64,000 bases of DNA from Acidobacteriota bacterium (GTDB lineage: Bacteria > Acidobacteriota > UBA6911 > RPQK01 > JAJDTT01): NCBI GenBank assembly GCA_965217775.1, contig CBDCJH010000002.1, positions 448,001 through 512,000 on the forward strand. Direction: 5' to 3'. The notes below the pieces were generated by a model that saw only the letters and a program-made list of their open reading frames with translations, was not told the DNA's origin and made no database searches. The first letter of the stretch is position 1, and every line of letters starts with the position of its first letter. Below are positions 39,995 to 63,240 of the stretch, piece by piece. Both the position numbers and the translations under genes were made by a program.

Positions 39995-40513
39995 TCAATG
40001 CCGCGTACGGGCAGTGACGGTAAAGCGGACGGTGTTCCCGACTTGTTCGAGGCCGCGAAGTTCCACCTGGGAAAACCCCGAGTCCGAAATCAGACGTTGC
40101 AGCAGAGTCCCCGCGACGGAGGGGGTAGCCGCAGTTCCCTCGAGGGTCAGAGTTTCCTCCTCCCAAACCAGACGATGCAGGGATACTTCCTCCCGGGACG
40201 GGAACCGGTCCATGAGCCGGTTCCACAACGAAAGAGGGGAAGCCTGATGGATCTTGAGTTCCCGGACACGGTTGCGGCACTGGATCAGGATTTCGACCGC
40301 CTCTTCCCAGCGCCGGACGCTCTCCAGAACCGCTTCCAGCCTCCCTCTGCGGTCAGAGAACGTCGCGAGTCTGGCTCGGCCCGAGTCTGTCCGGGAGTCT
40401 AGCGTCTGGTGCCAGACGGCGGTTGCCACGAGGACGGAGCATGCGGCCGCGAGGACCAGCAGGTCGCGTCTCGGCGCCGCCGCAATCGACGATCTGATGT
40501 GGATCCCCTTCAT
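39995..40513 (-). CDS. pilN: PilN-like protein (divergent)
   Basis: TM, coiled coil, LTLEGTA....L..SGF..VEL; synteny. Confidence 0.6.
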   Translation of the reverse strand: MKGIHIRSSIAAAPRRDLLVLAAACSVLVATAVWHQTLDSRTDSGRARLATFSDRRGRLEAVLESVRRWEEAVEILIQCRNRVRELKIHQASPLSLWNRLMDRFPSREEVSLHRLVWEEETLTLEGTAATPSVAGTLLQRLISDSGFSQVELRGLEQVGNTVRFTVTARTRH

Positions 40514-40703
40514 CTTCAATGTCCTCAACGCGCGAACCGCTTGGAACGCGAACCCAAGATGAGGAGTGAGGAGCACATCCACCGGGCGGCGCCCGGAATA
40601 ATCCCGGAAGGAGAAGGATAGGAGAGGCGGTTTCCAACCGCCGAACTCCGGAGGAACCATAGAAATAAGACTGGAACGGCCGAAAGAGGGAGTGGGCGAC
40701 TAA

Positions 40704-41460
40704 CCCGCATTTCTCGTGCGCCGTGGAGTGGATAGGAGGGAGAGAGTGGCAACACGGGAAGCCCCGCCGGTGACGTGGCACGCGTCAACCGGGAATCCGC
40801 GAGGACCAGCCTGGGCCGTCGGGGTGGCGGAGAGGCCCGTAGTACCGGAGAAGCCGGGTAACGCCGGTGGAGGGAAGGGGCCTCAGGTGAGGACGGGTGA
40901 GGGAAAGTGCGAAGGACTACGGGAGTGGCCTGGCCTGGAACCCCGGTTTGAGTTCGGAAGCGCTGGAACCACCGCATGCGAAAGCGAAGGGGAACGACCG
41001 TGGGACCGCGCGGGAGCGGGGGACTGCGGGCGGCAGCGGCAAGGCGAGGACCGGCTTGCCGCCGGGATCGGCAGCGGTCGGGGAGCAGAGGGAGAGGTGC
41101 CACTCTCGAGGTGCGGGCGGCGGAAGCCGTTGCGCCATTCCCGCCGCTGACGAATCGACCCGTGTGCGAGCGGCATGGTCCCACTGGAGAGCCCGCTGCG
41201 GGGAAACCGCACGGCGGGTTCGGAGAGCGGGGAGAGGAAACGTGGCCACGGTGGAGATTGAGGCACCGGCACGATGGCGAAAGCCGCCGGCAACAGCGAC
41301 TCCCTCCGACCTACCGCCGTCGCGCCTCTCCTCGACTCTACACCAGCGAGCGCGCGCGAGCGCGCAGTCTGTCCCGGAGAAACCTTGGAAAATTCCGCGT
41401 AAATGCTCAAAAACAGATTATTTTTCATCATACGCGTAGCGACCTGGTGAGAACTTCGGG
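40704..41460. mobile_element. MITE family C copy interrupted in its left TIR by a group II intron
   Basis: CTAA duplicated at 40700-40703 and 41461-41464; removing 40716-41341 restores CCCGCATTTCTC|ACCAG and a 131-bp element matching 63111-63240. Confidence 0.9.
40716..41341 (+). ncRNA. ORF-less, internally deleted group II intron (IIB-like, resembling bacterial class E/F)
   Basis: 5' GTGCG; DII/DIII-type CGGAGAGGCCCGTAGTACC...GCCGGGTAACGCCGGTGGAGGGAAGGGGCC; DV hairpin 41189-41221 with AGC triad and AC bulge; DVI ending CTCGACTCTAC with A at -7. Confidence 0.9.
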
Positions 41461-41586
41461 CTAAGGGTCGCCCCTCGTCCGAAGATGAAAGAGGGCGCCC
41501 GCACGGGGCGCCCCAACAGGTTCCCACCAAGCGTAGGCGCGTCCCGCAATCATTCGACATCCGGCGCATGAGAACAGACGGCAACC

Positions 41587-41616
41587 TTGACAAGGGACGG
41601 GTCCGTTCGGTAGATT
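41587..41616 (+). promoter_or_regulatory. sigma70-type promoter of the rplM operon
   Basis: TTGACA-18 nt-TAGATT. Confidence 0.65.
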
Positions 41617-41653
41617 TCCAGACTCTTGGACTCTGAGGGCGTAGTGTAACGAA

Positions 41654-42094
41654 ATGAAGAATTCGAGTAAGACGATTCTTCCAAGGCTTGACGAAATCGA
41701 CAGGAAGTGGTTCGTCGTGGACGCCAGCGATCAGGTTCTGGGTCGCTTGGCAACTCGATTGGCCACCGTCCTCATGGGCAAGGACCGACCCCATTACACT
41801 GATTTTCTCGATACTGGCGCATTCGTGATCGTCGTCAATGCCGACAAGGTGCGTCTGACTGGGAAGAAGTGGTCCCAGAAGGTCTATTATTCCCACAGCC
41901 GCTACCCGGGAGGGCTGAAAGAGATAACGGCCGAGAATCTGCTCCGCCGGTATCCGGATCGTCTGGTACGCTTGGCGGTTCGAGGTATGCTGCCGAAGAA
42001 CAAGTTGGGCAAGAGGATGATCCGGAAACTCAAGATCTATGCCGGCGCCGACCATCCGCATCAAGCTCAGAAGCCGGAGCCACTGGCCCTGTAA
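41654..42094 (+). CDS. rplM: 50S ribosomal protein L13
   Basis: WFVVDA...LGRLAT, GMLPKNKLG, HPHQAQKP. Confidence 0.98.
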   Translation: MKNSSKTILPRLDEIDRKWFVVDASDQVLGRLATRLATVLMGKDRPHYTDFLDTGAFVIVVNADKVRLTGKKWSQKVYYSHSRYPGGLKEITAENLLRRYPDRLVRLAVRGMLPKNKLGKRMIRKLKIYAGADHPHQAQKPEPLAL

Positions 42095-60213: not shown

Positions 60214-60807
60214 GTGAAGAGAACAGCATTGGTCGATCGAAAAACCAAAGAAACCCAGGTTCGGATCGAGCTGAATCTGGACGGCCGGGGCCGCTACTCG
60301 GCCCAGTTGCAGACCGGCTTCTTCAGCCACATGCTGGAACTATTGGCCTTGCACTCTGCAATGGATCTTCGGGTCCAGGGCGACGGGGACCTGCAGGTCG
60401 ACGACCATCACCTGATCGAGGACGTGGGGATCGTCCTGGGACAGGCGTTGAAGCAGGCCCTGGGGGAGAAGCGGGGGATCCGCCGCTATGGATGGACGCT
60501 ACTGCCCATGGACGAGGTTCTGGTGGCGGTGGCGCTGGATCTGGGAGGGCGTTTCGCCTTCCATTCCGACTACCGTCCCGTAAGAGAGAAGGTGGGAGAC
60601 CTGGCCACCGAAATGGCGCCGCATTTCTTCCGGTCTCTCGCCGTCGAGGTGGGCGCCAATCTCCACTTTCAATTCCTCAATCCGGGAGAGAACGAGCACC
60701 ATCGAATCGAGGCCATGTTCAAGGGTTTCGGCCGCGCGCTACGCACTGCCGTCAGTCTCGATCCGGAAGCCGCAGGGAAGATTCCCTCGACCAAGGGAAG
60801 CCTGTGA
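60214..60807 (+). CDS. hisB: Imidazoleglycerol-phosphate dehydratase
   Basis: RKTKET, DDHHLIED, PMDE, NEHHRIEAMFK, PSTKG. Confidence 0.97.
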   Translation: MKRTALVDRKTKETQVRIELNLDGRGRYSAQLQTGFFSHMLELLALHSAMDLRVQGDGDLQVDDHHLIEDVGIVLGQALKQALGEKRGIRRYGWTLLPMDEVLVAVALDLGGRFAFHSDYRPVREKVGDLATEMAPHFFRSLAVEVGANLHFQFLNPGENEHHRIEAMFKGFGRALRTAVSLDPEAAGKIPSTKGSL

Positions 60808-60816
60808 GGGTCATAT

Positions 60817-60974
60817 CAGCTCGTGGCAAAAGTCGTCACGGCATTCGACCGGGTCTGCATCCCGGCGGACTGCGTTGCTCCTCGGTCACATACTCCCGGT
60901 ATGCTCCCTCTGAGCGCCTTGTCCGGCGGGCGCAGCCCCGGTCTCGGTGCTCGCGAGACTTTCACCAAGGACTG
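60817..60974 (+). mobile_element. MITE family A copy between hisB and hisH
   Basis: Same body; ends 2 nt before the hisH ATG. Confidence 0.9.
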
Positions 60975-60976
60975 AA

Positions 60977-63110: not shown

Positions 63111-63240
63111 CCCGCATTTCTCACCAGGTCGCTACGCGTATGATGAAAAATAATCTTTTTTTGAGTATTTACGCAGAATTTGCCAAGGTTTCTCCGGGAC
63201 AGACTGCGCTGGGCGCGTGCCCCCTGGTGAGAAATGCGGG
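63111..63240. mobile_element. MITE family C intact copy
   Basis: Perfect TIR CCCGCATTTCTCACCAGG / CCTGGTGAGAAATGCGGG; CTAC duplicated. Confidence 0.92.

What the first reader, a model, noticed from the sequence alone, without database searches (positions are those of the whole stretch)
40694..41473. Three-level nesting: group II intron inside a MITE terminal repeat, inside a REP hairpin
Seen: deleting 40716-41341 (GTGCG...CTCTAC) rejoins CCCGCATTTCTC|ACCAG, which is exactly the TIR of the intact family C copy at 63111, with no target duplication, as expected for reverse splicing. Deleting the MITE and one CTAA leaves GGGCGAC-TAAGG-GTCGCCC-CTC, a variant of the family D REP arm GGGCGACCACAAGGGTCGCCCCTAC. 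Established: group II introns often home into mobile DNA. Inference: this lineage may use a multicopy MITE/IS end as its homing site, gaining many neutral targets while disabling the host element. That would make it a retroelement parasitising a non-autonomous DNA element.
Basis: partly seen in the sequence, partly recalled or inferred. Interest (0 to 1): 0.85.

Follow-up and report, generated by a model that had tools for sequence, protein, structure and literature searches.

The report
Dead group II intron in MITE end
A decayed, protein-less group II intron sits inside the terminal repeat of a miniature transposon that itself landed in a small hairpin repeat; its relatives show that this intron family deliberately targets such transposon tips, a behaviour already known from rhizobial introns.

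Summary
Window 40716-41341 starts GTGCG and ends in a canonical domain V/VI. Removing it restores the 18-bp terminal inverted repeat (TIR) of a 131-bp MITE with a CTAA duplication, lying in a GGGCGAC/GTCGCCC hairpin.

The homing inference also holds. Four other relics in this genome sit at TIR position 12|13 or 13|14. Among same-genus genomes, 17 of 22 intron 5' junctions lie at this TIR tip. Full-length parents of 1994-1998 nt encode a 463-aa RT/maturase. Their 7-nt EBS1 loop (UGAGAAA) pairs with TIR nt 7-13. Across 19 EBS1 variants the loop covaries with the 5' exon (0 of 10000 permutations).

Three corrections:
- This copy is not an intact ORF-less intron. It lacks 291 nt of domain I, including both EBS, so it is a fossil.
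- The genome holds no cognate RT.
- The ORF-less lineage inserts 1 nt earlier, with a matching 1-nt EBS1 shift.

Homing into IS inverted repeats is already described (RmInt2/ISRm17). This is a new member of a known kind, in an Acidobacteriota MAG, with MITEs as targets.

The parts
40694..40700 (.). Left arm of the REP-like hairpin (GGGCGAC); its last C is shared with the CTAA duplication
   Evidence: The hairpin family GGGCGAC-N3-9-GTCGCCC has 53 copies against about 1.3 expected.
40700..40703 (.). Left copy of the 4-bp target-site duplication CTAA of the MITE
   Evidence: The same CTAA stands at 41461-41464. 16 of 32 paired MITEs have identical 4-nt flanks.
40704..40715 (+). Outer 12 nt of the MITE TIR (CCCGCATTTCTC). 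This is the 5' exon of the intron and holds IBS2 (CCCG) and IBS1 (TTTCTC).
   Evidence: Pairing partners were identified in full-length relatives.
40716..41341 (+). Group II intron relic, 626 nt: ORF-less and with most of domain I deleted
40716..40727 (+). First 12 nt of the intron (GTGCGCCGTGGA). The joint 40727|40728 marks the 291-nt domain I deletion, corresponding to parent positions 13-303, which hold EBS2 and EBS1.
   Evidence: Alignment with copies c2, c3 and L020-L028; BLAST mapping. A 561-nt contig of run X1 covers 40500-40759 with 0 differences.
40728..40883 (+). End of domain I plus domains II-III, homologous to parent intron positions 304-459 (94% identity). The domain assignment is inferred.
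   Evidence: window-intron 13-168 matches L020 intron 304-459.
40884..41186 (+). 303-nt non-coding stretch standing where the parent has the 1383-nt RT/maturase region (domain IV)
   Evidence: No similarity to the RT: best blastx E 0.91. Also present in copy c2 and in G002.
41188..41222 (+). Domain V hairpin
   Evidence: Rfam alignment; fold.
41224..41341 (+). Extended domain VI. The bulged A at 41335 is the inferred branch point. The 3' end is ...CTCTAC.
   Evidence: Fold; Rfam alignment.
41342..41460 (.). Rest of the MITE: inner TIR ACCAG..., the body, and the right TIR 41443-41460 (2 mismatches to consensus). The MITE is 131 bp without the intron.
   Evidence: BLAST against the copy at 63111.
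41461..41464 (.). Right copy of the CTAA duplication
41467..41473 (.). Right arm of the REP-like hairpin (GTCGCCC)
63111..63240 (.). Intact, unoccupied MITE of the same family, in the opposite orientation, with CTAC on both flanks

Best explanation
Window 40716-41341 is a molecular fossil of a bacterial group II intron.

The lineage is endonuclease-less; its parent encodes only RT plus maturase. It retrohomes into the extreme tip of the inverted repeats of IS1380-type insertion sequences and of their MITE derivatives. Target choice is by RNA-DNA pairing. A 7-nt EBS1 loop (UGAGAAA) pairs with TIR nt 7-13 (TTTCTCA), and a 4-nt EBS2 (CGGG) pairs with TIR nt 1-4 (CCCG).

An ORF-less derivative has the RT region replaced by 303 non-coding nt and its EBS1 shifted by one base (GAGAAUA/GAGAAAA). 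This derivative inserts one base earlier, at 12|13 instead of 13|14. It must have been mobilised in trans by a cognate RT.

One such copy entered the left TIR of a 131-bp MITE that had itself inserted, duplicating CTAA, into the loop of a REP-like hairpin upstream of rplM. The copy later lost 291 nt of domain I, including both EBS. The genome has also lost every RT of this family. The copy can therefore neither splice nor move, and it leaves the MITE with a split end.

Shown: the anatomy, the recurrent site, the parent, and the EBS1 covariation. Inferred: the order of events, trans-mobilisation, and loss of MITE mobility.
For: Intron identity:
- GTGCG 5' end.
- RF00029 38.3 bits, E 1.5e-5.
- Domain V, and domain VI with a bulged A.

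Recurrence in this genome:
- The junction CCCGCATTTCTC|GTGCGCCGTGGA occurs 3 times among 143 12-mer hits.
- Copy c3 sits at ...TTTCTCA|GTACG, and copy c6 at a related tip.
- The window copy and c2 lie in MITEs with different flanks (CTAA, GTAG) and different bodies.

Relatives:
- 8 of 8 same-genus genomes match the intron.
- Full-length copies are 1994-1998 nt with a 463-aa ORF that hits RVT_1, GIIM and TIGR04416 (316 bits, cut-off 300).
- 17 of 22 real 5' junctions in the genus are within 3 mismatches of the TIR tip.

EBS1:
- UGAGAAA goes with exon ...TTTCTCA|, and GAGAAUA/GAGAAAA with exon ...TTTCTC|.
- The sister genus has CCUAGA with exon ...TYTAGG| in 12 of 12 loci.
- In the wider clade, 34 unique combinations and 19 distinct EBS1 give a mean of 5.8 of 7 pairs, against 3.2 across lineages; 0 of 10000 permutations reach this.

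Decay:
- 291 nt of domain I are absent.
- The best RT match in the genome is 32% identical and belongs to another intron family.

Target family:
- An element in G006 has inverted tips, CTAG flanks and an IS1380 transposase (294 bits, cut-off 180).
- A disrupted one lies in G000 at C2:2805839-2811070.

Precedent: RmInt2 in the IRs of ISRm17 (PMC4615759, passages read).
Against: - The Rfam score is under the gathering threshold, and nothing in the whole window reached it.
- 5 of 22 genus junctions are not TIR-like (L025, L033, L034, L035, L036), so the lineage also inserts elsewhere.
- EBS2 pairing is only about 4 bp, and I tested it by eye, not by permutation. My first EBS2 guess (AUGCGG) turned out to be invariant across lineages with unrelated targets.
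- No intact IS with this exact tip was found in this genome. Its roughly 9 intact IS1380-family copies have a different TIR, CCCAGATTATTCAT. The MITE-to-IS1380 link therefore rests on shared tips and CTAG flanks.
- One locus I first read as 'intron in an IS end' (L021/L057) proved to be an IS inserted into the intron's 3' end.
- No splicing or mobility data exist. RNA contigs over the intron carry full-length domain I upstream of 40730, so they come from another copy or strain.
Confidence: 0.85

Rival explanations
1. The 626-nt element is a living ORF-less group II intron that still splices, and perhaps moves, with help in trans. This is what the first reader implied.
For: - Domains V and VI and both splice-site motifs are intact.
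- The copy is 98-99% identical to copy c2.
- Intron-family RNA is abundant in metatranscriptome contigs, with depth in the hundreds to thousands over 40730-41341 and about 0 on the flanks.
- The genome has 11 copies of another RT-encoding intron.
Against: - The copy lacks parent positions 13-303 of domain I, including the EBS1 and EBS2 loops. Exon binding and domain I folding are needed for group II catalysis (established knowledge).
- The only RTs in the genome are at most 32% identical to the cognate one.
- The RNA contigs run on into full-length domain I at 40730, which this copy does not have.
Confidence: 0.04
2. This is a one-off ectopic insertion, and the match to a MITE end is a coincidence.
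For: 5 of 22 junctions in the genus lie in sites that are not TIR-like. Several lineages of the wider clade sit in unrelated single sites.
Against: - The same site, or the one next to it, is occupied in at least 5 places in this genome and in 17 of 22 junctions in the genus.
- The parent's EBS1 is perfectly complementary to TIR nt 7-13.
Confidence: 0.02
3. The copies at MITE ends spread as DNA rather than by independent retrohoming: by transposition of an intron-carrying MITE, segmental duplication, or gene conversion between MITEs.
For: - The window copy and c2 are 98-99% identical.
- MITEs are repeated about 50 times, which favours conversion.
- Copy c3 and L031 of G007 share their flank, so that copy was inherited and not re-inserted.
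Against: - The host MITEs differ in flanks (CTAA, GTAG, TTAA/CTAG) and in the body next to the intron (ACCAGCGAGCGCG... against ATCAGGGGGCGTGACG...).
- Both ends of the MITE are used. Relative to MITE orientation, the mini copy is at the opposite end from the window copy and c2.
- A split TIR should not be a transposase substrate (inference).
- EBS1 covariation shows that RNA pairing sets the site.
Confidence: 0.08

Closest known systems
[quoted passage not shown]
   Same: It is an endonuclease-less intron whose copies all lie within the inverted repeats of a multicopy IS. This gives two sites per element on opposite strands. Recognition is by IBS/EBS pairing from about -14 to +1 plus a protein-read distal 5' exon.
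   Different: - Here the hosts include non-autonomous MITEs of 130-240 bp as well as IS1380-type elements.
- The site is 12-13 nt from the very tip.
- The RT belongs to another clade. Sinorhizobium records were among the plasmid matches at E<=1e-5, but only S. fredii remained at E<=1e-70. I did not compare with RmInt2 directly.
- The window copy is a relic, not a mobile intron.
RmInt1 in ISRm2011-2 (IS630 family), with long-lived fragments such as FRE652 (PMC5894124, passages read)
   Same: An IS is the natural homing site. According to the paper, the insertion blocks the spread of the IS. Truncated intron remnants persist in genomes.
   Different: The RmInt1 site is inside the IS, not in its terminal repeat. 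RmInt1 is class D, whereas the class here was not determined.
ORF-less bacterial and archaeal group II introns (Simon et al. 2008; Dai and Zimmerly 2003). Seen only as entries in the reference list of PMC5894124; both PMC ids I tried were not held.
   Same: The intron lacks an encoded protein yet occurs in several copies, which implies mobilisation in trans (recalled).
   Different: This copy also lacks most of domain I, and no cognate RT is left in the genome.
IStrons (group I intron plus IS605-type IS; PMC4227781, abstract seen in a search listing)
   Same: An intron and a DNA transposon are physically combined.
   Different: There the ribozyme is part of the transposon and makes its insertions harmless. 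Here the intron is a parasite of the transposon end, and it is a group II retroelement.

Membership tests
Group II intron (ribozyme/retroelement) | 5' GUGYG and 3' AY boundaries | tested here: met
   GTGCG at 40716 and ...CTCTAC ending at 41341. The same ends occur in 51 of 80 related loci where both ends were found by motif.
Group II intron (ribozyme/retroelement) | Domain V hairpin, and domain VI with a bulged A | tested here: met
   RF00029 38.3 bits, E 1.5e-5, under the gathering score of 40. The fold shows domain V and a bulged A 7 nt from the 3' end, z -3.98.
Group II intron (ribozyme/retroelement) | Complete domain I with EBS1 and EBS2 | tested here: not met
   This copy lacks parent positions 13-303. 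The feature is present in copies c2 and c3 and in L020-L028. The copy is therefore a remnant of a member, not a functional member.
Group II intron (ribozyme/retroelement) | Intron-encoded RT/maturase in domain IV | tested here: not met
   This copy shows no RT similarity. The parents encode 463 aa with RVT_1, GIIM and TIGR04416 at 316 bits over a cut-off of 300. No HNH/En family was reported at E<=0.01.
Group II intron (ribozyme/retroelement) | EBS-IBS complementarity with the flanking exon | tested here: met
   Met for the lineage, not for this copy. UGAGAAA pairs with TTTCTCA. There is covariation over 19 EBS1 variants, with 0 of 10000 permutations reaching the observed mean.
Group II intron (ribozyme/retroelement) | Self-splicing and retromobility | not testable with these tools
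   No assay was possible. The RNA contigs cannot be assigned to this copy.
MITE of an IS1380-type element | Terminal inverted repeats, short size and no ORF | tested here: met
   The element is 131 bp once the intron is removed. The left TIR is 18/18 restored and the right TIR is 16/18.
MITE of an IS1380-type element | Target-site duplication and many copies | tested here: met
   CTAA stands on both sides. There are 32 paired elements, 16 with identical 4-nt flanks and CTAG most common.
MITE of an IS1380-type element | An autonomous partner with the same ends and a transposase | tested here: inconclusive
   G006 has an element with inverted 13-nt tips, CTAG flanks and an IS1380 transposase. 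In this genome only a disrupted copy was found, and the intact IS1380-family copies have another TIR.
RmInt2-like homing into IS inverted repeats | Copies lie within the inverted repeats, and both ends are used | tested here: met
   The window copy and c2 are at one end of the MITE and the mini copy is at the other. The genus-wide count is 17 of 22 junctions.
RmInt2-like homing into IS inverted repeats | Membership of bacterial class D (RmInt1/RmInt2 clade) | not tested
   No reference set of classed IEPs was on hand. Only indirect evidence: no S. meliloti plasmid record at E<=1e-70.
REP-like hairpin as the MITE's landing site | The site belongs to a repeated palindromic family | tested here: inconclusive
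   The arms match a family of 53 copies, but the loop TAAGG is unique. One related metagenome contig shows an intact hairpin at the empty site, with a shorter side of 26 nt.

The most novel reading that the evidence does not exclude
A whole clade of endonuclease-less group II introns may be specialised on the outermost 12-13 nt of transposon ends. The clade's RTs are 68-100% identical and occur in MAGs labelled Acidobacteriota, Vicinamibacterales, Terriglobia, Proteobacteria and others.

In this reading the RNA reads TIR nt 1-4 and 7-13, and the protein reads the TA of the transposon's own CTAG/TNA target duplication. That would explain the fixed distance from the tip.

Two further observations would then fit:
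- The ORF-less lineage re-registered by one base through a 1-nt EBS1 shift.
- The same 18-bp MITE end is also the landing site of an IS110-family (RNA-guided) element 2-3 nt further in. These tips would thus be shared landing pads for RNA-guided mobile elements.
Probability: 0.3. Interest if true: 0.55.

Novelty: new member of a known kind. Interest (0 to 1): 0.35.

Why it matters
It extends a behaviour known from two rhizobial introns, the use of insertion-sequence DNA as a safe multicopy home, to another phylum. It also extends it to non-autonomous MITEs and to a broad, horizontally spread RT clade.

The natural EBS1 series could serve as a ready-made retargeting table for this intron type. 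It comprises 19 variants with their targets, plus a 1-nt register shift.

For annotation, the case shows that a 626-nt 'ORF-less intron' can be a domain I-deleted fossil. It also shows that nested repeats (REP, MITE, intron, further MITE, and tyrosine-recombinase or IS insertions) can be untangled with relatives' genomes.

It does not open a long-standing question.

Tried and rejected
- EBS2 = AUGCGG (complementary to CCGCAU of the TIR) was my first reading (note). I rejected it because AUGCGG is invariant in lineages with unrelated targets. The variable 4 nt just upstream fit better. My regex for a formal EBS2 test failed and I did not repeat it.

- 'Full-length intron in the left end of an IS1380 element' for L021/L057 was rejected. 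That IS (TIR CCCAGATTATTCAT, 5-bp duplication CTCTA) is inserted into the intron's 3' end.

- The '1.9-kb IS with MITE-C ends' as the MITE's parent was rejected. It is an IS110-family element inserted in a MITE.

- I looked for transposases next to introns of other lineages in 10 ORFs. None hit a transposase family: two hit ordinary genes and eight hit nothing.

- I searched for an inverted 12-mer downstream of the intron in 51 loci. There were 9 hits, of which 2 look like chance; a reversed-sequence control hit in 3 loci.

- The GIIM Pfam search of the genome found nothing.

- blastx of the relic against the parent RT found nothing, best E 0.91.

- Alifold of domain I gave only a rough structure.

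- Read laying: no listed contig bridges the 3' junction 41341|41342. RNA contigs ending at 41341 may simply be graph breaks at a repeat border.

- I did not determine the intron's class. I did not test strand bias relative to replication.

- Literature searches for a MITE or IS1380 target of a group II intron gave no case beyond RmInt1/RmInt2. This covers only the held library. Supplements, for example Fig. S1 of PMC4615759 with the ISRm17 sites, were not asked for.

Full report
WHAT IS THERE.

Without 40716-41341 the left end is CCCGCATTTCTCACCAG. That is identical to the end of the unoccupied element at 63111-63240 and to 44 exact uninterrupted 17-mers in the genome (96 with up to 2 mismatches).

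The small element is a genuine MITE family. The genome has 32 paired copies of 126-241 bp, 16 of them with identical 4-nt flanks, and CTAG precedes 29 of 68 ends.

The window is G000:C2:448001-512000 of a 6.43-Mb, 2-contig genome. Same-genus genomes carry titles of Acidobacteriota MAGs.

THE INSERT IS A GROUP II INTRON, BUT A BROKEN ONE.

No Rfam family reaches its gathering score in the window. With the E-value threshold, RF00029 matches 41187-41341 at 38.3 bits (gathering score 40), E 1.5e-5. The fold of 41185-41341 gives a domain V hairpin and a long domain VI with a bulged A at 41335, 7 nt from the end (z -3.98; 0 of 200 shuffles as stable).

Whole-genome BLAST finds further pieces of the same intron. 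Reading them shows that copies c2 (C2:3542387 down to 3538081) and c3 (from C2:3331929 downwards) carry about 290 nt more between GTGCGCCGTGGA and GTGGATAGG. Mapped on a full-length relative, the window copy consists of four parts:
- positions 1-12;
- positions 304-459, at 94% identity;
- 303 nt with no counterpart;
- positions 1843-1997, at 88% identity.

So 291 nt of domain I are deleted, with the joint at 40727|40728 between two retained GTGGA pentamers. The 1383-nt protein-coding part is replaced by 303 non-coding nt (best blastx E 0.91). A 561-nt contig of run X1 covers 40500-40759 without a difference, so the 5' junction and the deletion joint are not peculiar to this assembly, although that run may be the source sample.

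THE PARENT.

All 8 same-genus genomes, and 30 of 61 relatives searched (G000 included), match the intron. G001, G003, G006 and G007 hold copies of 1994-1998 nt, with longer ones where something has inserted. These carry a 463-aa ORF that hits RVT_1 (115 bits), GIIM (58.5 bits) and TIGR04416 (316 bits, cut-off 300). No endonuclease family was reported.

The window's genome has no such gene. The best tblastn match is 32% identical and belongs to a different 11-copy intron family.

WHERE THE FAMILY INSERTS.

In this genome the exact junction CCCGCATTTCTC|GTGCGCCGTGGA occurs three times among 143 hits of the 12-mer with up to 1 mismatch:
- the window copy;
- c2;
- a 100-nt 'mini' remnant at C2:628163-628262.

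Copy c3 reads ...CCCGCATTTCTCA|GTACG. Copy c6 (C2:4646076 downwards) reads ...CCGGGATATCTCA|GAGCG. A 3' fragment at C2:2811535-2811659 abuts ACAGATAGAG.

The host MITEs differ in flanks and in body, and both MITE ends are used.

Across the genus, my motif scan gave 27 hits. I dropped 5 as chance matches not followed by intron sequence (L022- 408, L029- 221, L037+ 316, L051+ 1746, L051+ 2565). Of the remaining 22 junctions, 17 lie within 3 mismatches of the 12/13-nt tip. The 5 that do not are L025, L033, L034, L035 and L036. Copy c3 and L031 share their flank and count as one event.

One target in G006 is an autonomous-type element: inverted 13-nt tips 1.75 kb apart, CTAG on both sides, and an IS1380-family transposase (294 bits, cut-off 180). 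In G000 the corresponding element (C2:2805839-2811070) is disrupted. The roughly 9 intact IS1380-family copies have another end, CCCAGATTATTCAT.

HOW THE SITE IS CHOSEN.

In the full-length copies a 7-nt loop, in the context GACCCGCC-N7-CGGGGAAGGC, reads UGAGAAA. This is the exact complement of TIR nt 7-13. The copies that sit one base earlier (c2 and G002 L028) read GAGAAUA/GAGAAAA, which is the same loop shifted by one base. In the sister genus the loop reads CCUAGA, and all 12 fetched copies follow ...TYTAGG or TGTAGG.

I then took 80 loci found with the RT in named MAGs and could set both intron ends in 51 of them. In 49 the loop was found by pattern. These gave 34 unique loop/exon combinations with 19 different loops and a mean of 5.8 of 7 positions paired, against 3.2 when loops are matched with other lineages' exons. 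None of 10000 permutations reached the observed mean, whichever representative was used. EBS1 is thus established by covariation.

EBS2 is most likely the variable 4 nt before a conserved AUGCGG (CGGG pairing with CCCG, TIR nt 1-4). I judged this by eye only.

All of this lies in the piece that the window copy has lost.

A CLADE-WIDE SIGNATURE.

Among 50 unique target sites, TA[AG] ends at -14 (10 sites) or -13 (13 sites), and 0-2 times at each of the 12 other positions from -22 to -9. A stands at -14 in 32 of 50 sites, and T or A at -15 in 43 of 50.

In some lineages this is the duplication at a transposon tip. For the CAGCCCGTGGTG lineage, 7 of 9 loci have the inverted 12-mer 40-193 nt downstream, and 6 of those 7 have identical 4-nt flanks, so they are tiny MITEs. 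The GGACAGTGATCGA lineage has 7 copies whose similarity stops at -13.

In other lineages the sites are unrelated apart from the TA. That suggests the protein reads it, as the distal 5' exon is read in RmInt1-type introns (PMC4615759, passages). I could not separate the two readings.

THE REP LEVEL.

GGGCGAC-N3-9-GTCGCCC occurs 53 times against about 1.3 expected. The deduced empty site GGGCGAC-TAAGG-GTCGCCC has a loop seen nowhere else. One X1 contig joins 40651 to 41482 through GGGGCGAC-TGGCA-GTCGCCCC, which would be an empty site in a relative, but only 26 nt lie on its shorter side. The third level of nesting is therefore plausible but not firm.

WHAT IS KNOWN.

- RmInt1 homes into ISRm2011-2. 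The paper states that its insertion blocks the spread of the IS.

My searches of the held library for a MITE or an IS1380 end as an intron target found nothing further.

The RT here is 44-54% identical to annotated plasmid-borne ltrA genes. No S. meliloti record remains at E<=1e-70. I did not determine the class.

VERDICT.

There are three corrections: the copy is a domain I-deleted fossil; its RT family is extinct in this genome; and the ORF-less lineage inserts one base earlier. The phenomenon is a new member of a known kind, of modest interest.

Noticed in passing
G000:C2:1093482-1095384, 2209539-2211343 and 2286450-2288239 (outside the window; L050): An IS110-family element is inserted in three different MITE-C copies. 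Its 520-aa ORF scores 263 bits against NF033542 'IS110 family RNA-guided transposase'. The insertion lies between TIR nt 15 and 16 (CCCGCATTTCTCACC|AGG), 2-3 nt inward of the intron site. Four MITEs carry a TIR variant ...TCTGAGAAATGCGGG that resembles the element's left end.
   Followed up: partly
G000:C2, e.g. 5165800-5167790 and 10 other places: A second group II intron family has 11 near-identical copies of about 1.95 kb, each with a 526-aa RT ORF. It is inserted in the loop of REP-like hairpins: 5' exon ...GGCGACT|, 3' exon |TTCTTG(T/C)CGCC. This is the same hairpin family that hosts the MITE of this finding.
   Followed up: partly
G000:C2:3538731-3542190 (L051), inside intron copy c2: A roughly 3.4-kb element bounded by inverted repeats of about 100 bp sits in domain I of intron copy c2. 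It carries tandem tyrosine-recombinase ORFs (845 aa with two Phage_integrase stretches, and 339 aa). It resembles 'recombinase in trio' elements, a name I recall and did not test. Copies about 65% identical lie at C2:1689760, 2397248 and inside the disrupted IS1380 element at 2805839-2811070.
   Followed up: partly
G000:C2:3331350-3331515, inside intron copy c3, with 60 or more other places; also window about 60806-60975 (C2:508806-508975): Another abundant MITE of about 165 bp has ends CAGCCCGTGGC...CCACGGACTG and ATAG/CTAG-type flanks. It is inserted in intron copy c3 and makes up half of the 100-nt 'mini' remnant at C2:628163-628262. Its tip resembles the CAGCCCGTGGTG tip that a sister intron lineage targets in a Vicinamibacterales MAG.
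   Followed up: partly
L021/L057 (G006:C1:5538887-5540895): A 2.0-kb IS1380-family element (TIR CCCAGATTATTCAT) is inserted 1 nt before the 3' end of a full-length intron, duplicating CTCTA. This recreates a false 3' splice-site motif. About 9 intact copies of this IS are in G000, with 5-bp duplications.
   Followed up: yes
window 41587-41620 and 41655 onwards: A TTGACA-17-TAGATT promoter-like motif and the start of rplM (L13) lie just downstream of the nested repeats, so the whole nest sits in the intergenic leader region of a ribosomal-protein operon. I read the promoter motif by eye only.
   Followed up: no
runs X7 and X8 laid on window 40500-41700: In two metatranscriptome runs labelled sponge metagenome, contigs covering the ORF-less intron, including its 303-nt domain IV stretch, have depths of hundreds to thousands. 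The flanks have about 0. Upstream of 40730 these contigs carry full-length domain I, so an intact ORF-less copy seems to be expressed in some strain.
   Followed up: partly
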